From: Candidatus Binatia bacterium
GTDB lineage: Bacteria; Desulfobacterota; Binatia; UBA9968
NCBI GenBank assembly: GCA_046757725.1
Contig: JBHHYU010000008.1
Location: 230-64,229 of the forward strand
Direction of reading: 5' to 3'
Length of the DNA: 64,000 nucleotides
Under the pieces are notes generated by a model. That model saw only the letters and a list, made by a program, of their open reading frames with translations. It made no database searches and was not told where the DNA came from. The position numbers and the translations under genes were made by a program. This document shows positions 13,019 through 24,612 of this stretch, one piece after another. Each line of letters opens with the position of its first letter. Positions within the stretch are counted from its first letter, which is position 1.

Positions 13019-13615
13019 ATGACCGAGAAGCCTATCGACCGTAAGACCTTTCTACGTAAGGCCCCGTTGGCAATCGCGCGTGCCTTTGCCCAGGCCGTGC
13101 GCGAGGCGCATCCAACCATCCCAAAATCTTCTCTGCCTCTCCTTCGGCCGCCCGGGGGGGCCGCCAAAGAGACTTTCCTCGACTTGTGCTGCGGGACCGG
13201 TGCGTGCGCAGATGTCTGCCCGGCCAAAGCCATCCAGCTCCGCCCGCGTGAGGATACACCTTCGCTTCGCGCCCCGGTTATCATCCCCAACGAGGCTGCC
13301 TGCGTTGTCTGCGACGAACTCGCTTGCATGTCCGCTTGCCCCAGCGGCGCACTTGTGCCGGTCCCCCGAGAGAAGATCCGCATCGGCTTTGCCCGTGTCA
13401 ACACCGAGACATGCGTGGCATGGACGGGGACGGACCCGGGGTGCAACTATTGCGTTGCCCGTTGTCCACTCGGAACACCGGCCATCTCGATAGATAAGAA
13501 AGCAGACGGAAAAGGGCCGGTCGTTAAGGACGCCTGCATCGGCTGCGGTGTGTGCGAATACTACTGCCCGACCCAACCGCCCGCAATCCGCGTGCTTGCG
13601 AGGGAGCAGGGTTGA
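13019..13615 (+). CDS. Second NapG/NapF-like poly-ferredoxin (4x 4Fe-4S)
   Basis: Four Cys-cluster motifs. The N-terminus (DRKTFLRKAPLAIARAFAQAV) resembles a Tat signal but carries RK instead of RR. A ribosome-binding site lies upstream. Confidence 0.55.
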   Translation: MTEKPIDRKTFLRKAPLAIARAFAQAVREAHPTIPKSSLPLLRPPGGAAKETFLDLCCGTGACADVCPAKAIQLRPREDTPSLRAPVIIPNEAACVVCDELACMSACPSGALVPVPREKIRIGFARVNTETCVAWTGTDPGCNYCVARCPLGTPAISIDKKADGKGPVVKDACIGCGVCEYYCPTQPPAIRVLAREQG

Positions 13616-13738
13616 ACCTTTGTGCTTCCAGGATTTCCGCCTACCGGCCTGTGAAAAAGTTTCCATAAGCGGCCATTTTTTTCTTGACAAAGGGTTAGCG
13701 ATGCTTTAAACAGACTCATAAGAGTTAAACGACCTATT

Positions 13739-13749
13739 AGGTCTTTTGA
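13739..13749. promoter_or_regulatory. Exact 11-mer AGGTCTTTTGA, copy 1 (overlaps the Rrf2 RBS region, -17..-7 from ATG)
   Basis: An identical 11-mer recurs at 14258-14268 in the next intergenic region. A CTATTAG/CTAATAG half-site lies just 5' of each copy. Confidence 0.4.
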
Positions 13750-13755
13750 CTCCTA

Positions 13756-14229
13756 ATGAGTGAAATGAAGTTAGGGCGGGAAAGTTCATACGGAATCGAA
13801 GGCCTGTTGACTCTGGCTGCAAGGCCGCGGGGCACTGCGATGCTCTTAAGCGACATTGCCGCCGATAGAGGGATCCCCCAGAGTTTTCTCGCTAAAATCT
13901 TTCAGAAACTCACCAGATACGGAATCGTCCATTCTTTCCGTGGGGTCGTCCGCGGTTACGCCCTCGCTCGGCACCCAAAAGAGATCAAGGTTAAAGAGAT
14001 CCTATTGGCGATCGAAGGGCCTGATCTTTTCGAGCGTTGTATCTTCTGGAGCGATCGCTGTGCCGATCGCAACCCCTGTCCTCTGCATGACCAGTGGAAG
14101 CAATTAAAACATCAGTTCATCGGAGGATTGATGGAACGGACAACCCTGGCCGACCTGATAAAAAAAAGACCAGCCAGGCCTACGACGGCCAAGCGTCACT
14201 TTGTTCAGGACGCAAGGCGGGGAAGTTAA
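13756..14229 (+). CDS. Rrf2-family transcriptional regulator (NsrR/IscR-like, putative Fe-S cluster ligands)
   Basis: The N-terminal wHTH is typical of Rrf2. The motif CIFWSDRCADRNPCP gives C-x6-C-x5-C spacing as in NsrR/IscR. The gene sits between the Nap-like and NXR-like modules. Confidence 0.7.
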   Translation: MSEMKLGRESSYGIEGLLTLAARPRGTAMLLSDIAADRGIPQSFLAKIFQKLTRYGIVHSFRGVVRGYALARHPKEIKVKEILLAIEGPDLFERCIFWSDRCADRNPCPLHDQWKQLKHQFIGGLMERTTLADLIKKRPARPTTAKRHFVQDARRGS

Positions 14230-14257
14230 AAATTTTTGTGTCTCTAATAGACTAAAA

Positions 14258-14268
14258 AGGTCTTTTGA
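14258..14268. promoter_or_regulatory. Exact 11-mer AGGTCTTTTGA, copy 2 (128 bp upstream of the nxrC-like start)
   Basis: This is an exact repeat of 13739-13749. Chance recurrence of an 11-mer within ~300 bp of intergenic DNA is improbable. Confidence 0.4.
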
Positions 14269-14395
14269 ATCATTTGGTACACCCTAAGGAGTGCGGAAAC
14301 GGCATGATTTAATTTCCACGCGCTCATCAGGGACTCAACGAAAATAGAAGTAGGAGACATGAGGCGTTGAGCTAGTCATAGGGAGGAGGTCAGAA

Positions 14396-15976
14396 ATGAG
14401 ACGGTGTTTTTTGTTGATTGCCGGTGTGTTCCTCCTGTTACGTGCAGCAGGAGTCGGGACCTCCGCCGAATTAAAATCTCCTCCCCCTTCACCTAAACTC
14501 CTTGCCCTCGGAAAGCAGACTTACAACAAACATTGTGTCGCGTGCCATGGAGTGAATGGACGAGGAAATGGAGAAGCGGCCTACCTTCTCTATCCCAAAC
14601 CCCGTAATTTTGTGGCCGCAAGGTACCGCCTAGTGTCGACCTGGGAACGCATCCCGACCGACCAGGATCTCTTCAACACGATTTCGCGCGGCATGCCGGG
14701 ATCAGCCATGCCCTCGTGGGGGCATCTCTCGTCAAAGCAGCGCTGGGGGCTTGTTCATTACGTAAAGTCATTTGCTGAAAGGCCACTAACCACCAAGCCT
14801 CAGAGGAGACCAGGGGCTGATGGCAGCGATGGTCAAGGGGTCATCTATGTTGGGCCGGAGCCCTCTTACGATGCCACTGCCAAGGCGCGTGCTAAAGAGC
14901 TTTTCCGAGAGGCGTGTGCCTCCTGTCACGGTGCAACGGCAAAAGGGGATGGCGTGAAAAAGCAGTGGGACGTGGAAGGCTTTCCCACGCGCCCACGTGA
15001 TCTCACAGCCGGCGTTTTCAAGGGAAGTCCGGACCCCTTGCAACTGTACCGCCGCATCATCGCAGGCATTCCGGGTAGCCCCATGCCGATGAACAGCTGG
15101 GCTTATGGTAATGACGCCTGGCACCTCGTTCACTTTATCCGCTCCCTCTCAAGTGATGAGCAACGAGAGCGCGTGGAGATGAAAAAATTTCAGATCGTGG
15201 CCACGCGCGTAAAGAAGGTACCGGACAATCCCGACTCCGGCACTTGGCGTCTCGCCCAACCGGTAAACCTTCATCTGATGCCGCTCTGGTGGCGCTCCCA
15301 GCGGCCGGAAGAATTGACCGTGCGGGCACTCTACGACAGGAAGGAATTGGCTTTACTTTTAGTCTGGGCCGATCAGACGCATGACCATACAGCGATCCGG
15401 CCACAGGATTTCCGGGATGCTGCAGCGGTAGAGTTCTCGCTTACCAGGGATCCTCCTTTTTTCGCCATGGGCGAGAAGGGGAAATCCGTCAATATCTGGA
15501 TGTGGAAATCGGAGCGGCAGGCAGACCTTGAACCTGCCTTTCAGGACCTTGACAAGATCTACCCTAACCTCGGCATCGACTCTTACCCTAATCTATTACG
15601 CTCGCCGGTGGAACAGCCTTCGCGTAACGCGCTCACGCTCAAGTCAGACAAGACCTTCGTGACCGGATGGGGGGCGGGGAATATTGTTTCTGACCCCCAG
15701 CGCAAGAGCCCAGCCGAGGATCTCACGGCGCAGGGATTCGGCACGCTGCGAGCACGACCGCGGATCGACCAGAAGGTCAATGCGAAGGGCATTTATGGTG
15801 TCGGTGCCTACCGGGTCATCTTCCGGCGGGCGTTAAAGCCCAGCGGTAAGCACGCGCCGAAGTTTCAACCCGGCACGGCTGTGCCGGTGGCCTTTGCGGT
15901 CTGGAACGGCAGCGCCGGAGACCGTGACGGAAAAAAATCTGTGACCATCTGGCAGGAGCTGAAGATCGCAAAATGA
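14396..15976 (+). CDS. NxrC-like gamma subunit: Sec-signal, N-terminal dihaem cytochrome c fused to a C-terminal EB_dh-like (type-II DMSO-reductase haem-b subunit) domain
   Basis: Strong GGGAGGAGG ribosome-binding site and a signal peptide. Two cbb3/c552-type haem motifs (CVACHG, CASCHG) are followed by ...WNHLVHFIRSL. The C-terminal ~260 aa ends in VAFAVWNGSAGDRDGKKSVTIWQEL, which recalls from memory the gamma subunits of EbdC/SerC/NxrC enzymes. The gene lies immediately upstream of the alpha subunit. Confidence 0.55.
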   Translation: MRRCFLLIAGVFLLLRAAGVGTSAELKSPPPSPKLLALGKQTYNKHCVACHGVNGRGNGEAAYLLYPKPRNFVAARYRLVSTWERIPTDQDLFNTISRGMPGSAMPSWGHLSSKQRWGLVHYVKSFAERPLTTKPQRRPGADGSDGQGVIYVGPEPSYDATAKARAKELFREACASCHGATAKGDGVKKQWDVEGFPTRPRDLTAGVFKGSPDPLQLYRRIIAGIPGSPMPMNSWAYGNDAWHLVHFIRSLSSDEQRERVEMKKFQIVATRVKKVPDNPDSGTWRLAQPVNLHLMPLWWRSQRPEELTVRALYDRKELALLLVWADQTHDHTAIRPQDFRDAAAVEFSLTRDPPFFAMGEKGKSVNIWMWKSERQADLEPAFQDLDKIYPNLGIDSYPNLLRSPVEQPSRNALTLKSDKTFVTGWGAGNIVSDPQRKSPAEDLTAQGFGTLRARPRIDQKVNAKGIYGVGAYRVIFRRALKPSGKHAPKFQPGTAVPVAFAVWNGSAGDRDGKKSVTIWQELKIAK

Positions 15977-16058
15977 AGAGCGCAGCAGAAATAGAATTCA
16001 CAAAGCGGAATGGGGCAGGGGGTCTTGATGCTGACCAGTGGATTCCAGAAGGAGAGTG

Positions 16059-19000
16059 ATGACCATGAACGATGAAAAACTACAAGATCGGAATCGCTTG
16101 ACGCGCCGGGATTTCCTGCGCTGGATGGGTATCGGGAGCGGCACAGCAGTACTCAGCACAGGGTTGCCGTTGAGGCTTCTGGCTGCTGCGCGCCCCGGCG
16201 AGAATCCCCTCGCTGGTTCGGTGGACCGTAACTGGGAAAAAATATATCGCAATCAGTACAAGTATGATCGTGTTTTCGACTGGGTCTGCTCCCCCAATGA
16301 CACTCATGCCTGTCGAGTACGGGCCTATGTCCGAAATGAGATCGTGACGAGACTCGGATCAACCTACGACTACCAGACTTACGCCGACCTTTACGGTAAC
16401 AAAGCCACCCCGAACTGGAACCCACGGCAGTGCGCCAAGGGCTATACTTTCCATCGGGTGATCTACGGACCCTACCGGCTCAGGCATCCCATCGTCCGCA
16501 AAGGCTGGAAGGCCTGGGCCGACGCCGGCTTCCCTGAGCTGAGACCGGAAAACAAAGCGAAGTACATGTTCGACAACCGCGGCCAGGACGAGTTTGTTCA
16601 GATCTCCTGGGAGGATGCGCTTCAAAGCATCGCCAAGGCCATCGTCGCCATTTCGACACGTTACAGCGGTGAGGGGGGAAAGAGGCGGTTGCTGGCCCAG
16701 GGCTACCAGCCGGAAATGGTTGAGGCTGCCGCGGGTGCCGGCACTCGTTGCGTCAAGATGCGTGGAGGCATGGGCCTTCTAGGGGTCATCGGCAAATACG
16801 GGTTGTACCGGCTCAACAATTCGCTTGCGCTCCTCGATGCGAAGATTCGAGGGGTAGGTCCAGAAAAAGCACTAGCTGGCCGCAACTGGTCTAATTATAC
16901 CTGGCACGGAGATCAGGCGCCCGGCCACCCATGGGTGCACGGACTGCAAACATCGGACTGCGATTTCAACGACTTGCGCTTCACCAAGCTCATTATCTTG
17001 GACGGAAAGAATCTCGTAGAAAATAAGCTACCCGATGCCCACTGGTTCATCGAGTGCATGGAGCGTGGGGGAAAAATTGTCGTTATCGCCCCGGAATACG
17101 GACCTCCTGCAACCAAGGCTGATTACTGGATTCCCATTAGGCCCGAGACCGACACGGCACTCTGGCTTGGTGTTACTAAACTGATTTTCGAAAACAAGTG
17201 GTACGATGAGACATTCGTCAAACGCCATACCGATTTCCCCCTCCTCGTCCGTACCGATACGTTGAGGCGTCTGCGGGCACATGAGATCTTCCCGAACTAT
17301 TCCTCCAACCTCTCCCCTGATGGGCCTTCGATGAAGATCCAAGGTCTTACACGGGAGCAACACTCCAAACTCGGTGATTTTGTAATCTGGGACCAGAAAA
17401 ACAATGGCCCAGCCGCGCTCACGCGAGATGATGTGGGAGAGACGATGGCTAAAAAGAGGCTGGACCCAACCCTGGAAGGAACGTTCAAGGTCAAGCTTGT
17501 CGACGGTAAAGAGGTGGAGGTCGCCACGCTTTGGACGCTCTATCGGACCCATCTTCGGGACTATGACCTTGACACGGTATCAGAGATCACGCATGCACCC
17601 AAGAACCTGATCGAACAGCTTGCCAAGGACATCGGAGCGATAAAACCAGTTGCGATCCACCAGGGCGAGGGGATCAATCACTGGTTCCACGGTACCGAGA
17701 TGAACCGTGCAGCCTACCTGCCACTGATGCTAACCGGCAACATTGGCAGGCCGGGAGCCGGGGGCCATACATGGGCAGGAAATTACAAAGCAGGTCTTTT
17801 TCAGGGTTCCCCATGGACCGGGCCGGGCTTTAAGGGGTGGGTAGCCGAGGACCCATTCCACCCGAATTTGGACCCCAAGGCCCATGGAAAAAACGTAAAG
17901 ATCCATGGCTACACTAAGGGCGAGGAGCCAGCCTACTGGAACCATGGGGACCGGGCATTGATTCTCAACACACCGAAGTTCGGCCGTAAGAATTTTACCG
18001 GCGAGACCCACATGCCAACACCGACCAAAGCCATTATCTTTAACAACGTTAACCTGATCAATAATGCCAAGTGGGCCTACGGGATGATTAAGAACGTCAA
18101 CCCCAACATCGAGATGATCGTCTCGCTGGATATTCAGATGACTGCCTCTATTGAGTATGCAGACATTGCGCTGCCAGCGAATAGCTGGATGGAGTTTGAA
18201 GGGTTGGAGATGACGGCGAGCTGCTCAAATCCCTTCTTGCAGATCTGGAAGGGAGGTATTTCACCGGTGTTTGATAGCAGGGATGACCTGACGATTCTGG
18301 CTGGCATCGCCGGCGAGCTTGCCGAGATTACGGGAGAGAGCCGCTTTCGGGATCATTTTAAGTTCGCTGCGCCCGAACAGCGCGGGATCTATATCCAGCG
18401 CCTGCTCGACACCTGCACGACCACGGCAGGGTATAAACTCAAGGACATTATGGCCGGCAAGTATGGACCCCCGGGGGGCAGCCTGTTGAACTTCCGCACC
18501 TACCCTCGCATCCCCTTCTATGAGCAGATCCATGATTCAGAGCCGTTCCACACGGACACGGGGAGACTCCACGCCTATGCTGATATCCCTGAGGCAATCG
18601 AGTACGGGGAAAACTTCATCGTGCATCGGGAGGGACCAGAGGCTACGCCCTACTTGCCCAACGTCATTGTCAGTTCAAACCCTCACATTCGCCCGGAGGA
18701 TTACGGGATCCCTCTAACCGCGGAACACTGGGATGAACGCACCGTCCGCAACGTCAAGCTTCCATGGAGCAGAGTCAAAGAGACGAAAAATTTCCTGTGG
18801 GAGAAAGGCTTCCATTTCTACTGCCTCACTCCGAAGACACGCCACCGGGTCCACAGTGGTTGGTCAAACGTCGATTGGCACATGCTCTATGACTCAAACT
18901 TCGGCGACCCTTACCGTCTTGATAAGCGTGCGCCAACGGTGGGAGAGCACCAGCTCCATATCAATCCTCAGGCAGCACGGAAATTAGGGATCAACGATGG

Positions 19001-19538
19001 CGATTACGTTTACGTGGATGCCAACCCGGCCGACCGCCCCTACCTCGGCGCAACGCCCAGCGATCCTTTCTACAAGGTATCGCGCTGCATGCTGCGAGTG
19101 AAATACAACCATGCTTATCCCTATAACATCGTCATGATGAAGCACGCCCCGTTCATCGCCACAGAAAAGAGCGTCAAGGCACACGAAACACGCCCCGACG
19201 GCCGCGCCCTATCGGAAAATACCGGCTACCAGGCCAATCTCCGCTACGGCTCCCAGCAATCCGTCACCCGTAATTGGCACATGCCAATGCACCAAACGGA
19301 CAACCTTTTTCACAAGTCAAAGGTCTTTATGGGGTTTATCTTTGGCGGTGAAGCCGACAACCACGCGATCAACACCGTACCGAAGGAAACCCTGGTGCGC
19401 GTCACGAAGGCTGAGGACGGAGGCCTTGGCGCCAAAGGCATCTGGAAACCGGCCACCACCGGCTACACGCCGGACAACGAGAACGACTTCATGAAACGAT
19501 ATCTGGCAGGGGAGCTGGTCAAGGTGCCGGGCAAATAG
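16059..19538 (+). CDS. nxrA: Tat-exported NarG-type molybdopterin oxidoreductase alpha subunit, periplasmic NXR/NarG-like (NxrA candidate, ~1160 aa)
   Basis: Twin-arginine motif TRRDFLRWMGIGSG. The N-terminal Cys/His FS0-type motif is VCSPNDTHACRV. The size matches periplasmic NxrA (~1150 aa) rather than type-II enzymes (~920-980 aa) or cytoplasmic NarG (~1250 aa). A gamma-like subunit lies upstream and a beta subunit downstream. The alternative ATG at 16065 has better ribosome-binding-site spacing. Confidence 0.7.
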   Translation: MTMNDEKLQDRNRLTRRDFLRWMGIGSGTAVLSTGLPLRLLAAARPGENPLAGSVDRNWEKIYRNQYKYDRVFDWVCSPNDTHACRVRAYVRNEIVTRLGSTYDYQTYADLYGNKATPNWNPRQCAKGYTFHRVIYGPYRLRHPIVRKGWKAWADAGFPELRPENKAKYMFDNRGQDEFVQISWEDALQSIAKAIVAISTRYSGEGGKRRLLAQGYQPEMVEAAAGAGTRCVKMRGGMGLLGVIGKYGLYRLNNSLALLDAKIRGVGPEKALAGRNWSNYTWHGDQAPGHPWVHGLQTSDCDFNDLRFTKLIILDGKNLVENKLPDAHWFIECMERGGKIVVIAPEYGPPATKADYWIPIRPETDTALWLGVTKLIFENKWYDETFVKRHTDFPLLVRTDTLRRLRAHEIFPNYSSNLSPDGPSMKIQGLTREQHSKLGDFVIWDQKNNGPAALTRDDVGETMAKKRLDPTLEGTFKVKLVDGKEVEVATLWTLYRTHLRDYDLDTVSEITHAPKNLIEQLAKDIGAIKPVAIHQGEGINHWFHGTEMNRAAYLPLMLTGNIGRPGAGGHTWAGNYKAGLFQGSPWTGPGFKGWVAEDPFHPNLDPKAHGKNVKIHGYTKGEEPAYWNHGDRALILNTPKFGRKNFTGETHMPTPTKAIIFNNVNLINNAKWAYGMIKNVNPNIEMIVSLDIQMTASIEYADIALPANSWMEFEGLEMTASCSNPFLQIWKGGISPVFDSRDDLTILAGIAGELAEITGESRFRDHFKFAAPEQRGIYIQRLLDTCTTTAGYKLKDIMAGKYGPPGGSLLNFRTYPRIPFYEQIHDSEPFHTDTGRLHAYADIPEAIEYGENFIVHREGPEATPYLPNVIVSSNPHIRPEDYGIPLTAEHWDERTVRNVKLPWSRVKETKNFLWEKGFHFYCLTPKTRHRVHSGWSNVDWHMLYDSNFGDPYRLDKRAPTVGEHQLHINPQAARKLGINDGDYVYVDANPADRPYLGATPSDPFYKVSRCMLRVKYNHAYPYNIVMMKHAPFIATEKSVKAHETRPDGRALSENTGYQANLRYGSQQSVTRNWHMPMHQTDNLFHKSKVFMGFIFGGEADNHAINTVPKETLVRVTKAEDGGLGAKGIWKPATTGYTPDNENDFMKRYLAGELVKVPGK

Positions 19539-19572
19539 AGGGAGCTTGCAAGATAGACCGAGGAGAACTCAG

Positions 19573-19869
19573 ATGCCTTATGACGATCCTGATCCCACGG
19601 ATCCCAATATCTTGGTGGGGGTAGCCCTGCCGGCCGATGCGGAAGTAATATGCGAGATGGCCTACGTCTTTGCCGAAGAATTTATCCGAATGGGGTACGA
19701 TCGAGAGCGAGTGCTGCAGGTTTTCAAGAACCCGTTTTACACCGGTCCGCACAATGCTTACCGGGACCTGGGCGAAGAGAAAGTCCAGTCCATTATCGAG
19801 GAGTGTATCCACGCATGGGGCGGTGTCTGTTTTGTTGATTGCGACGACGGAAAGGAGACAGAACCATGA
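19573..19869 (+). CDS. Small acidic Cys-containing protein of unknown function, translationally coupled to nxrB
   Basis: 98 aa with a GAGGAG ribosome-binding site upstream. Its stop overlaps the nxrB start (ATGA). Cys residues include a C-terminal CFVDCDD. It occupies the entire nxrA-nxrB intergenic space. Confidence 0.5.
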   Translation: MPYDDPDPTDPNILVGVALPADAEVICEMAYVFAEEFIRMGYDRERVLQVFKNPFYTGPHNAYRDLGEEKVQSIIEECIHAWGGVCFVDCDDGKETEP

Positions 19870-21131
19870 GTCAGGTTTACAACTGGCAACTCGGCCGCAA
19901 GATGGATTATCCCTTTCCGGCCGCATATCCGAAGCGGCAGTTCGCCTTTGTCTTTAATATCAACCGCTGCATCGCCTGCCAGACCTGTACCATGGCCTGC
20001 AAATCAACCTGGACCTTCAGCAAGGGCCAGGAACATATGTGGTGGGCCAACGTCGAGACCAAACCTTATGGTGGTTATCCCCAGTTTTGGGACATGAAGA
20101 TCCTGCGGCTTCTCGAGGAAGCCAACCCCGGAGGGCAGCAATGGTCGGGAACCCCTTCCGGGAACTCCAAAAACCCCTACGGTCGTTTTGACGGACAAAC
20201 TATTTTTGAGGCTAAGAAAGCGCTTCAGCCCGGGAGCTCACGGGTCCTAGGTTACCTTCCCACCGACGAGGAGTGGAACTTTCCCAACATCTATGAGGAC
20301 AATCCGCTCGGCAAGAAAGGGGTGCCCAACCAATTCGACACAACCGGAGTGGAGCTGCCCGTACACAAGACCTGGTTCTTTTATCTGGCGCGTATTTGCA
20401 ACCACTGTACCTACCCCGGGTGTCTGGCAGCCTGCCCGCGCAAGGCCATTTACAAACGCCCTGAGGACGGCATCGTCCTCATCGACCAGAAGGAGTGCCG
20501 TGGCTACCGTAAGTGCGTGGAGGCCTGCCCTTACAAAAAGGCAATGTATCGGGGCAATACCCGAGTGACCGAGAAATGCATTGCCTGCTACCCACGAGTC
20601 GAGGGTAAAGACCCCGAGAGTGGTGGCCAGCCTATGGAAACGCGTTGCATGGCGGCGTGCGTGGGCCAGATGCGCATGCAGGGCCTAGTCAAAATGAACC
20701 GGGACGGCACCTGGACCGAAGACCGACACAATCCGATCTACTACCTCGTGCATGTGGCCAAAGTAGCCCTACCGCTTTATCCCGAACTCGGCACTTTACC
20801 CAATGGTTACTATATTCCTCCCCGCTGGGTACCGCGACCTTATCTTCGGCAGATGTTCGGTCCAGGCGTTGACAACGCGATCGAGCGTTATATTAACCCG
20901 GACCGAGAACTCCTTGCGGTCCTGCAGCTTTACCGGCGCTCCAACCGAATCATCTTCCGCTATGAAATTAAGAAGGGGCCAAAGATCTATGAGGCCACGC
21001 ACCGCGGCCGGAAAGTGACGCTGTACAACGACACCATTATCGCTTATGGCCGAAACAACAAGGAGATCTTCCGAACCACTGTTGAGGAGCCGGTTTATGT
21101 ACGGTCGAAAAAACATGCCAACTCGATATGA
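19866..21131 (+). CDS. nxrB: NarH/NxrB-type Fe-S beta subunit (4 clusters, NxrB-like insertion), 421 aa
   Basis: The N-terminus MSQVYNWQLGRKMDYPF...FAFVFNINRCIACQTCTMACKSTW resembles periplasmic NxrB. Four Cys clusters are present, including the inserted CIACYPRVEGKDPESGGQPMETRCMAAC. A GGAAAGGAGA ribosome-binding site lies upstream. Confidence 0.75.
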   Translation: MSQVYNWQLGRKMDYPFPAAYPKRQFAFVFNINRCIACQTCTMACKSTWTFSKGQEHMWWANVETKPYGGYPQFWDMKILRLLEEANPGGQQWSGTPSGNSKNPYGRFDGQTIFEAKKALQPGSSRVLGYLPTDEEWNFPNIYEDNPLGKKGVPNQFDTTGVELPVHKTWFFYLARICNHCTYPGCLAACPRKAIYKRPEDGIVLIDQKECRGYRKCVEACPYKKAMYRGNTRVTEKCIACYPRVEGKDPESGGQPMETRCMAACVGQMRMQGLVKMNRDGTWTEDRHNPIYYLVHVAKVALPLYPELGTLPNGYYIPPRWVPRPYLRQMFGPGVDNAIERYINPDRELLAVLQLYRRSNRIIFRYEIKKGPKIYEATHRGRKVTLYNDTIIAYGRNNKEIFRTTVEEPVYVRSKKHANSI

Positions 21132-21217
21132 AGAGATAAAGAGCCCGTATTCCGTTCGTTTTCATTTCCTCCTGCGCAACGTCCGGCGCCTTCAGGTCAC
21201 CCACAGTTCAGGAGATC

Positions 21218-22024
21218 GTGATGAAACCTGAAAATCTGAGAAAAGAACAAGAGGTCAGGGAGGGCGATCTAGCCCTCTGCCGAGCCACTCTGTATAGCGC
21301 GCTGGCGCTCGGCTTCCGACCGCCCACAGAGGAAACATTAACTCGCCTCGCCTCTACGGAGGGTGCAACGGTTTTGGCCGGCGCAGCGGCGCTGCTGGAC
21401 GGACAGCACCAGGTAACCCTCACCTCCGCCGCAGAGGATCTCAGCAAAATAAAAAAAACCTCCGTATCAGAGCTCGAAGTCTCATTCTGGCGCCTATTCG
21501 GCCATACCGTACGCGGCCAGGTACCCCTATATGAAACCGAGTACGGTGTTGATTCTCTTTTCCAGCAACCGCAGGAATTGGCAGACCTATTAGGTTTTTA
21601 CCACGCATTCGGTCTCGCCTTAGACCCGAAAGAACACGAACGGGCAGATCATGTTAGTTGCGAACTCGAGTTTCTCTCCTTTCTTGCCCTCAAAGAGGTC
21701 TACGGCTTGGAGCAACGGGACGACCCTATGCTGGAAGAGACACGTAAGGCCGCGCGCACCTTCTTACGGGATCATCTCGGTCGGTTCGCGCCTGCCTTCA
21801 CCAGGAAGCTTTCTCGTGAAGACCGGGAGGGCTTTTACGGGGCTCTAGGTGAGCTCTGCGCGAGGTTTGTGATCGAAGATTGTACCCGACTCAGCGTGTC
21901 GGTCGGCCCAGAGAGTTTAGGCTTGCGTCCAGCTGCTGAAGATCAAGTGCCGATGGCATGTGACAATGGAGCGGAGTGCACTGAGTTGTCCGGCGCTTGC
22001 GAACAGGAAATAATGGAAAAATGA
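21218..22024 (+). CDS. TorD/NarJ/DmsD-family redox enzyme maturation chaperone (delta subunit)
   Basis: Contains the family motif E-H-E-R-A-D-H-V-S-C-E-L-E-F-L-S-F-L (DHxxxELEFLxxL), typical of TorD/NarJ. The gene lies downstream of the beta subunit. Confidence 0.7.
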   Translation: MMKPENLRKEQEVREGDLALCRATLYSALALGFRPPTEETLTRLASTEGATVLAGAAALLDGQHQVTLTSAAEDLSKIKKTSVSELEVSFWRLFGHTVRGQVPLYETEYGVDSLFQQPQELADLLGFYHAFGLALDPKEHERADHVSCELEFLSFLALKEVYGLEQRDDPMLEETRKAARTFLRDHLGRFAPAFTRKLSREDREGFYGALGELCARFVIEDCTRLSVSVGPESLGLRPAAEDQVPMACDNGAECTELSGACEQEIMEK

Positions 22025-22977
22025 GCCCTGGGGTTCTTCTCAGTTACGACTCCAGTTTAATGGAAGAGGCTGTCTTCCTCGCTTTGCAGGGACATCCGGC
22101 CGCCGTGGAATTTTTCGGTGAGCGCAACAAACTCTACGAAATCAGTGATTCGGAGGAACAAGAGCGTGCCTTTCGGGATTTCCATTGCGCCTGGTTTACC
22201 CGTTTAGAATTCGCCGACCAGATCGAAAAGGCAGTCAACGAACACCCTTTTCTTACTTCCAGTGTCAGGCGCTGTGTCGTAGCTTGCGTCTCAAGAAAGC
22301 AAGATGAAGGAGCTGAACTCTTTGTCGGTTCCCAAGCAGAAAACAGCGAAAAAGAGCGTCGTACGGTGCGAATCCTATTGAGACCTGAATCATTTCTTGA
22401 CTCCCTTACTCTACTAAGACTGCTTCGCCATGAACTTTTGCACATCACGGACATGCTCAGCACTAGCTTCGGCTATGACCCGATCCTACCGAAGGCACCA
22501 GGCGGGCCCGCCTATGACCAATTACTACAAGACCGCTACCGTGTCCTGTGGGATGCAACGATAGATGGTCGAATGGTGCGGCGCGGCTGGGCGCCCGATT
22601 CGATCCGTGTAGAGCGCCTTTGTGAATTCCGCCATGCCTTTCCCATGTTCAGGGAAGCGGCCTCTCAGCTGTTTGATCGCTTTTTCGACCAAGAGCCACA
22701 TACGCATGGCGAATTGGTTACATTCGCCTGCAACCCCATGGCCGCCGTAGATGACTCACCAATGACGCGCAGCCCCGGAAGCCGGTGCCCTCTTTGCGGT
22801 TTTCCAACGTATGCGTTCGAGCCGGCGCCTGAGCACCTGCCTCTAGAGGTCCTCTCTCAGATCACTCAAGACTTTCCGCGGTGGCGCCCAACTCAGGGTC
22901 TTTGCACCCAGTGTGCGGATCTTTACCGGGCACGTTGGGCCTCGTCTCGTGCAGAGAGTCCTTTTCCGGGAACATAG
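22021..22977 (+). CDS. Hypothetical protein with HExxH motif and C-terminal CxxC...CxxC zinc-ribbon, translationally coupled to the chaperone gene
   Basis: The ATGA overlap with the chaperone gene's stop indicates translational coupling. The motif LLRHELLHITD carries HExxH. The C-terminus holds CPLCGFPTYAF...CTQCADLY. I recognise no known family. Confidence 0.45.
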   Translation: MSPGVLLSYDSSLMEEAVFLALQGHPAAVEFFGERNKLYEISDSEEQERAFRDFHCAWFTRLEFADQIEKAVNEHPFLTSSVRRCVVACVSRKQDEGAELFVGSQAENSEKERRTVRILLRPESFLDSLTLLRLLRHELLHITDMLSTSFGYDPILPKAPGGPAYDQLLQDRYRVLWDATIDGRMVRRGWAPDSIRVERLCEFRHAFPMFREAASQLFDRFFDQEPHTHGELVTFACNPMAAVDDSPMTRSPGSRCPLCGFPTYAFEPAPEHLPLEVLSQITQDFPRWRPTQGLCTQCADLYRARWASSRAESPFPGT

Positions 22978-23082
22978 CCACATCCTCGCGTTGATTGACA
23001 GCCGGGAGAAACGCTACCTCGCAGCAACCGCCTTGCTCATTCCAGCCTAGGAATTATCTGTAAAATTATTGTAGTATACAAA

Positions 23083-24612
23083 GTGATGGCTAAGGTCTAT
23101 GTCGCCGGCGTGGGAATGACAAAATTCGGGAAGAGCCCTCAATCGCTGGTTGAGCTTTTTTGTGAAGCTGCTTCCCGCGCCCTCTCAAACTCATCGTTCC
23201 AGGAAATGGATGCCTTGTACATTGGCGCCATGAACCCCGAACAGTTTACGGGAGAGAGCAATATCGCGTCGCATATCGTCGATGCCTTAGGTGGAACCGG
23301 TTTGCCCGCACTCAGGATAGAAACGGCCTCCTCCGCCGGGGCAGCGGCACTGCTCGCCGCATACCAGGCAGTGGCCTCGGGGTATTACCGGCGCGTTCTG
23401 GTGCTGGCTGGAGAAAAAATGACCCATCTCAGCACTAGCGCAACCACTCGGATTCTAGCTGAGGTCATCGACAGGCAAGAGCGACAGTGCGGGGCAACTA
23501 TGCCGGCCCTAGCAGCCATGATCACGGAAAAGTACCGAAAGAGATATCGTCTTTCGGCATCACGTCTGGAGCATATGCTTTGTCGCGTAGCGATGAAAAA
23601 TCACCGGAACGGCTCACACAACCCCCATGCGCAGTTTCAAAAACCTCTTTCGGAAAAGGCATACTTTTCGAGCAAGATGATCTCCACGCCACTCAGGCTT
23701 TATGATTGTGCGCCCATTACCGACGGCGCAGCAGCTGTGATCTTGACCTCGGAACATACGGACCTAGTTATCGCCGGCATAGGGCAGAGCACGGGGCCTG
23801 TCAGCCTTAGAGAGCGAGATTCTTTCACTTCCTTTCCCGCTACCCAGATTGCTGCTGCGAGGGCTTATGAGATGGCTGGTGTCTCCCCTAAGGACATCGA
23901 TTTTGCGGAAGTGCATGACGCCTTTACTCCATTTGAAATCATCGGTACGGAAGACCTAGGATTTTTTCCTCCTGGAAAAGGTGGTGAGGCTGTGGAGGCG
24001 GGAAAAACTGCCTTGGAAGGGTCACTGCCCGTCAACCCTTCGGGAGGTCTCAAATCCCGCGGGCATCCCGTGGGAGCAAGCGGTTTGGCACAGATCGTGG
24101 ATAACGCAGACCGACTAAGGGGAAACTCTGAGGCAAAGTCGCGACGCGAGGCCAAGAGGGCCTTGGCTCAAAGTATCGGGGGCCTAGCCGCCAACAACTT
24201 TGTGACCATCCTCGAGCGCAGTGACAGCTCGACTCAAGTCCAAAACCTATGGCCTCACCGGTACCCTCCCTCTTCCCTTCGGCGTCTTTCCCAACCTAAG
24301 TCGGATCACAAGGCGCCCGGCGATGAGGGTCGCATTGAAACGTTTACAGTTCTTCATGTCACCCCTGATGGCTTCCTTCCTCCTCTGGCACTTGCTCTCA
24401 TTCGTGACAAGCTCGGACGCCTCCATATGGCCCGGGGAGAGGATATCTCCCTTCTAAAAATCGGAAGAGAAGTGTACCTACGTCAAGGGGTGGATGGTTA
24501 TTATTTTACGGTAAAGAGCCACCTGCGTCGAGTCATGGATTCCATAGAAAAAGTTTTAGGGCGGCTTCCTCCATTGCCCCGAAGCAAAAAAACGGCTCAC
24601 GGCAAAAAGTAA
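23083..24612 (+). CDS. Thiolase-like (SCP-x/Ltp2-type) domain fused to a C-terminal DUF35 OB-fold domain; nucleophilic Cys apparently replaced by Ser
   Basis: The N-terminal KVYVAGVGMTKFGK and the GHPVGASG motif mark a thiolase fold. Where thiolases carry CxSG, this protein has ETASSAG. The C-terminal ~120 aa are OB-fold/DUF35-like (GRIETFTVLHV...). Confidence 0.55.
   Translation: MMAKVYVAGVGMTKFGKSPQSLVELFCEAASRALSNSSFQEMDALYIGAMNPEQFTGESNIASHIVDALGGTGLPALRIETASSAGAAALLAAYQAVASGYYRRVLVLAGEKMTHLSTSATTRILAEVIDRQERQCGATMPALAAMITEKYRKRYRLSASRLEHMLCRVAMKNHRNGSHNPHAQFQKPLSEKAYFSSKMISTPLRLYDCAPITDGAAAVILTSEHTDLVIAGIGQSTGPVSLRERDSFTSFPATQIAAARAYEMAGVSPKDIDFAEVHDAFTPFEIIGTEDLGFFPPGKGGEAVEAGKTALEGSLPVNPSGGLKSRGHPVGASGLAQIVDNADRLRGNSEAKSRREAKRALAQSIGGLAANNFVTILERSDSSTQVQNLWPHRYPPSSLRRLSQPKSDHKAPGDEGRIETFTVLHVTPDGFLPPLALALIRDKLGRLHMARGEDISLLKIGREVYLRQGVDGYYFTVKSHLRRVMDSIEKVLGRLPPLPRSKKTAHGKK

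What the first reader, a model, noticed from the sequence alone, without database searches (positions are those of the whole stretch)
19573..19869. Small Cys-containing ORF wedged between nxrA and nxrB with an ATGA stop/start overlap
The 98-aa acidic protein is MPYDDPDP...CFVDCDD. It has its own GAGGAG ribosome-binding site and its stop codon overlaps the nxrB start, implying translational coupling and co-expression with the catalytic subunits. The function is unknown. It could be an assembly or metal-handling factor, or an additional small subunit.
Basis: seen in the sequence. Interest (0 to 1): 0.6.

Follow-up and report, generated by a model that had tools for sequence, protein, structure and literature searches.

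The report
Conserved small partner protein of nitrite oxidoreductase
The small gene between the two main subunit genes of this nitrite-oxidoreductase-like enzyme is real and strongly conserved; it belongs to an undescribed protein family that holds the same position in hundreds of such gene clusters across many bacterial phyla, and it most likely binds the enzyme rather than a metal.

Summary
An ATG ORF at 19573-19869 (98 aa, pI 4.1) follows a GAGGAG ribosome-binding site, and its stop overlaps the beta-subunit start (ATGA).

It is a real gene:
- At least 541 clusters at 50% identity exist.
- dN/dS is 0-0.3 for close pairs.
- It lies between alpha and beta in all 90 relatives' clusters examined that carry it, across more than 10 phyla. 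These include three more distant NXR-like lineages.
- It is absent from the three anammox-type clusters checked. There the genes between nxrB and nxrA (kustd1701/1702) are a NarJ-like chaperone and a 322-aa protein.

No Pfam, NCBIfam, PDB-sequence or Foldseek relative was found, and no paper describes it.

Metal handling is not supported. Only one of the four Cys is conserved in near relatives, and none across the wider family.

The anatomy is a highly conserved N-terminal peptide (MPYxDPDPTDPxxLVGVxLP) that is disordered when modelled alone, a confident four-helix domain (pLDDT 96), and a variable tail.

It evolves more slowly than the two maturation genes and co-varies with the structural subunits. 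It stays next to beta when foreign DNA is inserted after alpha.

Best reading: a cofactor-less NXR-binding protein, either a small subunit or a docking clamp. A transient cytoplasmic assembly factor is a close rival.

The parts
19560..19565 (+). GAGGAG ribosome-binding site of the small ORF, 7 nt before its ATG
   Evidence: Read directly from the sequence.
19573..19869 (+). Small ORF: 98 aa, 11.1 kDa, pI 4.14, no signal peptide. Member of an undescribed family found between the alpha and beta genes of periplasmic NXR-like enzymes.
   Evidence: homologues. (purifying selection). (no curated family).
19573..19638 (+). Residues 1-22: the most conserved stretch, MPYxDPDPTDPxxLVGVxLP. Predicted disordered when the protein is modelled alone. 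Proposed docking peptide.
   Evidence: Invariant P2, P6, D7, P8, D10, P11, L14, G16 and V17. pLDDT 54-58. The DPxxLVGV core is kept in distant members.
19639..19818 (+). Residues 23-82: compact four-helix domain (helices 23-39, 44-52, 57-66 and 68-82).
   Evidence: AF2 gives pLDDT of 95 or more in the full-length model. The domain modelled alone gives mean pLDDT 96.3 and pTM 0.83. No Foldseek neighbour in the PDB.
19819..19866 (+). Residues 83-98: tail, variable in sequence and length across the family. It carries two non-conserved Cys and the beta ribosome-binding site (AAGGAG, 19852-19857).
19866..21131 (+). Beta subunit (NxrB-like, four Fe-S clusters, 421 aa). Its ATG overlaps the small ORF's stop.
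   Evidence: 589 bits to 7B04_A.
16038..19538 (+). Alpha subunit (NxrA-like Mo-bisPGD subunit, 1166 aa as listed). Carries a twin-arginine motif, RRDFLRW.
   Evidence: 65% identity to Kuenenia NxrA, active-site residues conserved.
14396..15976 (+). Gamma subunit: two cytochrome c domains plus an EB_dh haem-b domain (526 aa).
21218..22024 (+). Delta: NarJ/TorD-type chaperone (268 aa).
   Evidence: PF02613, TIGR03482.
21997..22977 (+). Conserved 326-aa protein of unknown function with an HExxH motif and a C-terminal CxxC...CxxC. Last gene of the six-gene cassette.
   Evidence: present in relatives. (32% identity to the Kuenenia 322-aa protein).

Best explanation
The ORF encodes a small, acidic protein with no cofactor that is a dedicated binding partner of the structural core of a periplasmic NXR/NAR-type molybdoenzyme.

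Proposed mechanism. It is translated from the same mRNA immediately before beta, and its stop is coupled to the beta start, so it is made in step with beta. Its invariant N-terminal peptide becomes ordered by docking onto a structural subunit, beta and/or gamma being the best candidates. The four-helix domain provides a second contact. It stays with the enzyme as a small non-catalytic subunit or clamp. Because it has no signal peptide, it would travel through the Tat system attached to alpha, as beta does.

Shown here:
- The gene is real and under purifying selection.
- Its position between alpha and beta is constant.
- Close spacing or overlap with the beta start is the rule.
- It lacks a conserved metal-binding pattern.
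- The domain anatomy is as described.
- It co-varies with the structural genes, not the maturation genes.

Inferred:
- Physical binding.
- The identity of the partner.
- Persistence in the mature enzyme and export with it.
For: - Position: the order gamma-alpha-small-beta-delta-orf326 holds in all 87 loci from the first scans. The small gene also lies between alpha and beta in three further loci of the same type, L093-L095, and in three divergent lineages, L090, L092 and L097. Homology of the divergent copies is confirmed at 97-98% hhalign probability for L090 and L092 and by direct reading of the translation for L097.
- Linkage to beta: where about 1.4 kb of foreign DNA is inserted, it lies between alpha and the small gene, and the small gene stays next to beta.
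- Coupling: the stop overlaps the beta start or lies within 10 nt of it in 63 of 92 loci.
- Rate of evolution (mean pairwise distance): alpha 0.22, beta 0.24, gamma 0.51, small 0.66, delta 0.82, orf326 1.05.
- Co-variation: the small protein's distance matrix correlates at 0.86-0.88 with gamma, alpha and beta, but 0.76 with delta and 0.60 with orf326. Partial correlations are 0.37 (gamma), 0.26 (beta), 0.07 (alpha), 0.10 (delta) and 0.01 (orf326). The same method recovers alpha-beta (0.73) and delta-alpha (0.31), pairs known from established knowledge of NarGH and NarJ.
- Anatomy: the most conserved segment is disordered in isolation, which fits folding on binding, and it is followed by a very confident helical domain.
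- No fusion partner: nearly every family member is a free-standing small protein of 57-187 aa; the few longer ones (P0330, P0302) are isolated fusions or likely chimeras.
Against: - The gene is absent from the three anammox-type clusters checked. The active, crystallised Kuenenia NXR consists of A, B and C only (PMC8387239). The protein therefore cannot be needed for catalysis in general.
- It has no signal peptide, so a periplasmic location requires hitch-hiking, which is not shown.
- The mirror-tree correlations rest on 37 non-independent loci of one operon and are only suggestive.
- No interaction model could be computed.
- No proteomic evidence was available.
- A transient chaperone would show most of the same genomic features.
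Confidence: 0.4

Rival explanations
1. It is a transient cytoplasmic assembly factor. It holds newly made beta, or the beta-docking face of alpha, until the cofactors are inserted. It is released before Tat export and is not part of the mature enzyme. This resembles NarJ-type chaperones and the Nitrobacter PPIase NxrX, which occupies the same position.
For: - A positional precedent exists. In Nitrobacter winogradskyi, nxrX lies between nxrA and nxrB and is regarded as a folding helper (PMC4786786).
- In other type II enzymes the chaperone gene sits among the structural genes, as in serABDC and narGHJI (my own knowledge).
- The protein has no signal peptide.
- It is absent from the anammox clusters and from the purified Kuenenia ABC enzyme (PMC8387239).
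- It has a disordered conserved peptide plus a small helical domain.
Against: - The clusters already encode a NarJ/TorD-type chaperone and a second conserved maturation-type protein.
- The small protein evolves more slowly than both of those, and it co-varies with the structural module rather than with them.
Confidence: 0.33
2. It is a regulatory or sensing adaptor. It would link the enzyme or its assembly to an O2, NO or iron signal, for example by working with the hemerythrin-like proteins that recur in these clusters.
For: - Hemerythrin genes lie upstream in L007, downstream in L090, and between beta and delta in L093.
- One family member, P0330, is fused to a hemerythrin-like HHE domain.
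- An Rrf2-type regulator gene lies directly upstream in the window.
Against: - There is only one fusion among 150 listed representatives, and it may be an assembly artefact.
- Most clusters, including the window's, have no hemerythrin gene next to the cassette.
- The protein shows no DNA-binding or sensor signature.
Confidence: 0.1
3. It acts mainly in cis. Translating the ORF brings ribosomes to the beta start and melts mRNA structure, which sets the beta:alpha ratio. The protein product would be secondary.
For: - The ATGA overlap in the window.
- Overlap or spacing of 10 nt or less in 63 of 92 loci.
- In many relatives the ORF runs through a long hairpin just before the beta ribosome-binding site. 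One example folds at -116.6 kcal/mol with z = -6.9.
Against: - The amino-acid sequence is strongly conserved across phyla, with dN/dS of 0-0.3 and 24 invariant residues. A pure coupling ORF would not show this.
- The window itself has no hairpin.
- Coupling and a functional protein can coexist.
Confidence: 0.05
4. It is a cysteine-based metal- or redox-handling protein.
For: - This copy has four Cys, three of them near the C-terminus.
- C78 is invariant in the 120 closest relatives.
Against: - C27, C86 and C90 are replaced by R/T, R/K and L/R/Q in most near relatives.
- C78 is Val, Ala or Leu in distant members that hold the same position.
- No CxxC motif or His/Cys cluster is conserved.
- No metal-binding family matches.
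Confidence: 0.03
5. It is a chance ORF in a long nxrA-nxrB spacer.
For: None, beyond its small size and the lack of annotation.
Against:: hundreds of homologues, a fixed position, and purifying selection in this reading frame.
Confidence: 0.01

Closest known systems
NxrX / NorX of Nitrobacter (gene between nxrA and nxrB)
   Same: It has the same position between the alpha and beta genes of a nitrite oxidoreductase, and it is regarded as an accessory folding or assembly protein (PMC4786786, PMC12815253).
   Different: NxrX is a peptidyl-prolyl isomerase homologue in the cytoplasm-facing, NarG-like NXR. The protein here matches no PPIase or any other Pfam family, is much smaller, and belongs to the periplasmic NXR lineage. 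It is an analogue by position, not a homologue.
NarJ / TorD / DmsD-type chaperones (the 'delta' gene of type II DMSO-reductase operons)
   Same: They are small-to-medium, all-helical proteins without cofactors. They are encoded within the operon and bind a subunit during maturation.
   Different: A true member of that family (PF02613, TIGR03482) is already encoded at 21218-22024. The small protein has no similarity to it and does not co-vary with it.
NXR-T (Kustd1705) of Kuenenia
   Same: It is a lineage-specific extra protein of a periplasmic-type NXR, found in addition to A, B and C (PMC8387239).
   Different: NXR-T is a monohaem cytochrome c that induces tubule formation. The small protein has no haem motif and no signal peptide, and it is absent from anammox clusters.
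FdsD, the small subunit of NAD-dependent formate dehydrogenase (from my own knowledge, not tested)
   Same: It is a small, cofactor-less helical protein encoded in a molybdoenzyme operon, described both as a subunit and as a helper of cofactor insertion.
   Different: No sequence match was found; the Pfam scan returned nothing. The enzyme class is different and cytoplasmic.
UBA-type three-helix protein-binding domains
   Same: A weak sequence resemblance covers residues 31-64. The 'MGY-ERERV...NP-H-A' pattern aligns with the RAD23 UBA domain at E = 0.09-0.4. UBA_3 matches at E = 0.003-0.02, below its cut-off.
   Different: All matches are below significance. Foldseek with a pLDDT-96 model does not retrieve UBA domains. 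The domain also has a fourth helix.

Membership tests
NxrX/NorX (Nitrobacter) | Gene lies between nxrA and nxrB | tested here: met
   PMC4786786 for Nitrobacter.
NxrX/NorX (Nitrobacter) | Peptidyl-prolyl isomerase domain | tested here: not met
   No Pfam or NCBIfam family at E <= 0.01. No rotamase hit among the 70 members scanned at E <= 5.
NarJ/TorD/DmsD chaperones | Match to PF02613 / TIGR03482 | tested here: not met
   No hit for the small protein. The neighbouring 268-aa gene does match.
Cys-ligated metal or Fe-S protein | Conserved pattern of at least three Cys/His ligands | tested here: not met
   Only C78 is conserved in the near family. No Cys is conserved in the wider family.
UBA-like domain | Significant sequence or fold match to UBA domains | tested here: inconclusive
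Periplasmic NXR/NAR-type type II DMSO reductase (for the flanking genes) | Full-length homology of alpha and beta to a characterised NXR, with the Mo ligand Asp and the FS0 ligands conserved | tested here: met
   Alpha is 65% identical over 1146 residues to Kuenenia NxrA. Asn70, Asp71, Cys67, Cys75 and Asp275 are conserved. Beta scores 589 bits to 7B04_A.
Periplasmic NXR/NAR-type type II DMSO reductase (for the flanking genes) | Twin-arginine signal on alpha and none on beta | tested here: met
   RRDFLRW is near the alpha N-terminus. Beta starts MSQVYNWQLGR, like Kuenenia NxrB.
Periplasmic NXR/NAR-type type II DMSO reductase (for the flanking genes) | Physiological nitrite oxidation | not testable with these tools
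   The organisms are uncultured. Papers list these genes as 'NAR/NXR' (PMC11264602; 10.1101/2022.03.11.484050).
Stoichiometric subunit of the mature enzyme | Co-purifies with, or is resolved in, the mature complex | not testable with these tools
No proteomic data were available.

The most novel reading that the evidence does not exclude
Most periplasmic NXR-like enzymes outside the anammox bacteria are four-subunit enzymes. The small protein would be a cofactor-less fourth subunit that leaves the cytoplasm attached to alpha-beta through the Tat system and sits at the beta/gamma end of the complex. It would define an enzyme architecture different from the only solved NXR, that of Kuenenia. It may also be required to produce these enzymes in a foreign host.
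Probability: 0.3. Interest if true: 0.65.

Novelty: new variant of a known kind. Interest (0 to 1): 0.5.

Why it matters
NXR makes almost all nitrate in nature. NXR-like clusters of unknown direction are widespread in soil, aquifer and marine lineages: Binatia, Methylomirabilota, Acidobacteriota, Gemmatimonadota and others.

- A conserved fourth gene inside the core of these clusters has so far been annotated only as 'hypothetical'. None of the papers I could search mentions it.
- If it is a subunit or an obligatory assembly factor, it is a missing component for heterologous expression, biochemical reconstitution and structural work on these enzymes.
- Its presence or absence cleanly separates the alpha-X-beta cluster type from the anammox type. 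That makes it a practical marker when classifying NXR/NAR-like genes in metagenomes.

Tried and rejected
- Kuenenia small ORFs. I expected kustd1701/1702, which lie between nxrA and nxrB in Kuenenia, to be homologues. They are a 322-aa protein (the relative of orf326) and a NarJ-like chaperone. A family HMM finds nothing in the Kuenenia or Brocadia loci.
- Curated families. Pfam and NCBIfam give no family. Scanning 70 members one by one gives only sub-threshold UBA_3 hits.
- PDB sequence searches. With the single protein and with a profile, only marginal RAD23 UBA matches appear.
- Complex prediction. I built a paired small+linker+beta alignment from 32 loci.
- Domain fusions as a functional clue. 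P0330 is a single fusion to a hemerythrin-like domain. P0302, P0279 and P0270 look like chimeras or read-through. This is too thin to build on.
- Promoter and terminator scan of 13500-23300: nothing above the shuffled expectation.
- Literature. Searches for kustd1701/1702, nxrX, 'between nxrA and nxrB' and extra NXR subunits found no description of this protein.
- Canonical nitrite oxidisers. I could not test whether Nitrospira and Nitrospina carry the gene.

Full report
**Observation**

- The ATG is at 19573 and the TGA ends at 19869, giving 98 codons.
- GAGGAG lies 7 nt upstream of the start.
- The beta-subunit ATG at 19866 overlaps the stop as ATGA. The beta ribosome-binding site (AAGGAG, 19852-19857) lies inside the 3' end of the small ORF.
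- The protein is acidic: pI 4.14, 11.1 kDa.

**Surroundings**

All genes of the cluster are on the + strand:

| Gene | Window coordinates | Description |
|---|---|---|
| Rrf2 regulator | 13756-14229 | Transcription regulator |
| gamma | 14396-15976 | Two cytochrome c domains plus an EB_dh haem-b domain |
| alpha | 16038-19538 | Molybdopterin subunit with a twin-arginine motif |
| small ORF | 19573-19869 | This finding |
| beta | 19866-21131 | Four Fe-S clusters |
| delta | 21218-22024 | NarJ/TorD-type chaperone |
| orf326 | 21997-22977 | Unknown function |

Alpha scores 1830 bits over its full length against Kuenenia NxrA (7B04_B). It is 65% identical, and Asn70, the FS0 ligands Cys67/Asp71/Cys75 and the Mo ligand Asp275 are conserved. 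Beta scores 589 bits against 7B04_A. The 'nxrA/nxrB' labels are therefore right as homology. The physiological direction is unknown: papers on these uncultured lineages write 'NAR/NXR'. The exact protein is on record from a Candidatus Binatia MAG as 'hypothetical protein'.

**Is it a gene?**

Yes.
- A word-indexed search found 495 homologues at 55-74% identity.
- An exhaustive profile search found 541 clusters at 50% identity, 256 of them at E <= 1e-10.
- A profile of divergent members found 1294 proteins.
- Nearly all are free-standing proteins of 57-187 aa. Every one that carries a source name is called 'hypothetical', and none has a Pfam domain.
- Close pairs have dN/dS of 0-0.3, and third codon positions vary 2.2-2.6 times more than first and second positions.
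- The overlapping 135-aa ORF on the minus strand (19519-19926) is therefore a shadow of the real gene.

**Where is it found?**

A scan of one genome per species gave 80 loci. They come from Binatia, Methylomirabilota/Rokubacteria, Acidobacteriota, Gemmatimonadota, Latescibacterota, KSB1, Eisenbacteria, Hydrogenedentota, Handelsmanbacteria, Marinimicrobia and Phycisphaerae.

In all 87 loci held at that point, tblastn with the six window proteins gives the same order: gamma-alpha-small-beta-delta-orf326. Further loci from a Zixibacteria MAG, a Verrucomicrobiales MAG and an unnamed run show the same order.

Three more distant NXR-like lineages have different surroundings: cytochrome bd-like oxidase and cytochrome c genes upstream, and gamma placed after delta. 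They also carry a small ORF of 88-112 aa between alpha and beta, overlapping the beta start. These are L090, L092 (a Xanthobacteraceae MAG) and L097 (a Tara Oceans contig). L090 and L092 are homologous at 97-98% hhalign probability, and L097 by direct reading of its translation.

The three clusters with the anammox gene order lack the gene. These are Kuenenia, Brocadia and L091, with the order nxrC-nxrB-delta-322 aa-nxrA. An HMM search of all six frames of the Kuenenia and Brocadia loci found nothing.

This also settles what kustd1701 and kustd1702 are. They are the 322-aa relative of orf326 (32% identity) and the NarJ-like chaperone, not relatives of the small protein.

**Anatomy**

The 120 nearest relatives all start at the same Met and share an almost invariant N-terminus, MP[YF]xDPDPxDPxxLVGVxLP. 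A conserved core follows, to about residue 85. After that the sequences differ in both length and composition.

AF2 predicts residues 1-22 as disordered when the protein is modelled alone (pLDDT 54-58). Residues 23-82 form four helices with pLDDT of 95 or more. The domain modelled on its own with a more diverse alignment gives mean pLDDT 96.3 and pTM 0.83. Foldseek finds no significant neighbour in the PDB for either model.

A weak resemblance of residues 31-64 to UBA domains recurs in four searches but never reaches significance. I treat it as a lead only.

Of the four Cys in this copy, C27, C86 and C90 are private. C78 is invariant among near relatives but is Val, Ala or Leu in the distant members. 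The residues kept across the whole family include D10, P11, L14, G16, M29, E35, E36, G41, F51, P54, H60, G67 and E68. This is not a metal-cluster pattern.

**Relation to its neighbours**

- The small ORF's stop overlaps the beta start or lies within 10 nt of it in 63 of 92 loci.
- Four loci have about 1.4 kb inserted. In L047 the insert carries toxin-antitoxin-like genes on the minus strand. L063 has a larger gap of about 2.2 kb that I did not examine. In all five the extra DNA lies between alpha and the small gene, so the small gene stays attached to beta.
- Mean pairwise distances across 37 complete loci place the small protein between the structural and the maturation genes: alpha 0.22, beta 0.24, gamma 0.51, small 0.66, delta 0.82, orf326 1.05.
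- Correlating the distance matrices separates two modules. Gamma, alpha, small and beta correlate at r = 0.82-0.94. Delta and orf326 correlate at r = 0.79.
- Partial correlations of the small protein are 0.37 with gamma, 0.26 with beta, 0.07 with alpha, 0.10 with delta and 0.01 with orf326.
- The same calculation recovers alpha-beta (0.73) and delta-alpha (0.31). That gives some trust in it, although the pairs are not independent and the result is only suggestive.

**Mechanism**

The data fit a cofactor-less protein that binds the structural core of the enzyme. It would do so through a peptide that folds on binding, plus a small helical domain. It is made in step with beta.

I rank the readings as follows:

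| Reading | Confidence | Main argument |
|---|---|---|
| Lasting small subunit or clamp, exported attached to alpha-beta | 0.40 | Evolves more slowly than the maturation genes and co-varies with the structural module |
| Transient cytoplasmic assembly factor | 0.33 | Positional precedent of the Nitrobacter PPIase NxrX between nxrA and nxrB (PMC4786786); absent from the crystallised Kuenenia ABC enzyme (PMC8387239) |
| Adaptor linked to hemerythrin-like proteins | 0.10 | Recurring hemerythrin neighbours and one fusion |
| Role purely in cis, as a translational coupler | 0.05 | Contradicted by the protein's conservation |
| Cys or metal handling | 0.03 | Cys residues are not conserved |
| Chance ORF | 0.01 | Refuted by homologues, fixed position and purifying selection |

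**Comparison with what is known, and novelty**

The category is familiar: an accessory protein or small subunit encoded inside a molybdoenzyme operon. Examples are NarJ, NxrX, NXR-T and FdsD.

The protein family itself matches none of them. It has no curated model and no solved relative, and it is not mentioned in any paper I could search. Its distribution is a clean, previously unremarked rule: present in every alpha-then-beta cluster I examined and absent from the anammox-type order.

I rate it a new variant of a known kind, of moderate interest. It would rise if the protein proves to be a fourth subunit or a requirement for assembly.

I could not test whether canonical Nitrospira or Nitrospina carry it.

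Noticed in passing
L007:8256-8409; L015:919-1150; L017 and L025:6261-6409; L020:6258-6423 (related loci; not present in the window at 19828-19868): In many relatives the stretch between the conserved core of the small ORF and the beta ribosome-binding site holds a long inverted repeat. Its arms are built from tandem 7-8 nt units (GATTTTG.../...CAAAATC or GTTCAAAC.../GTTTGAAC). The L015 example folds at -116.6 kcal/mol with z = -6.9. The small ORF stays open through it, so the variable tails such as 'FSILDFGFSI...IQNPKSKIQN' are the two arms translated, and the ORF still ends at the beta start. It may be an intercistronic mRNA element that sets the alpha:beta ratio.
   Followed up: partly
window 21997-22977; L088:8045-9013: The last gene of the cassette (326 aa, no Pfam family) is 32% identical to the Kuenenia 322-aa protein between the NarJ-like gene and nxrA (kustd1701). 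Both have an HExxH motif (HELLHITDM / HEIMHILDM) and a C-terminal CPLC...CxxC pair. It co-varies with the delta chaperone (partial r = 0.61). It looks like an uncharacterised NXR maturation protein shared with anammox bacteria.
   Followed up: partly
L007:39-623; L090:11653-12090; L093:8612-9121; protein P0330: Hemerythrin-like (HHE) genes recur around these clusters. In L093 one lies between beta and delta. One family member, P0330 (310 aa), is a fusion of the small protein to a hemerythrin-like domain.
   Followed up: no
L047:4638-5935 (also L038, L046 and L084): About 1.4 kb carrying toxin-antitoxin-like ORFs on the minus strand (one begins MKRGELYRV, resembling MazF/PemK) is inserted between alpha and the small gene inside the operon.
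   Followed up: partly
L088 (Kuenenia stuttgartiensis CP049055.1, 722938-736170): The two 'unknown' or 'hypothetical' genes kustd1701 and kustd1702 between nxrA and nxrB are a 322-aa HExxH/zinc-ribbon protein and a NarJ-type chaperone. A published data set reports both as transcribed but not detected in the proteome (PMC6423088).
   Followed up: yes
window 13756-14229 (+): An Rrf2-family regulator (PF02082) with a Cys-rich C-terminal part (CIFWSDRCADRNPCPLH) lies directly upstream of the gamma gene on the same strand. It could be a redox- or NO-responsive regulator of the cluster.
   Followed up: no
window 19519-19926 (-): A 135-aa ORF on the opposite strand spans the whole small gene. Given the purifying selection in the + frame, it is a shadow ORF and not a gene.
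   Followed up: yes
L093:10909-12018; L094:10784-11880; L095:10523-11496: In several relatives, molybdenum-cofactor genes (MOSC, MobA-like NTP_transf_3, FmdE/MobB) directly follow orf326. The 3' half of the cluster is thus a maturation module, and the small gene sits in the structural 5' half.
   Followed up: no
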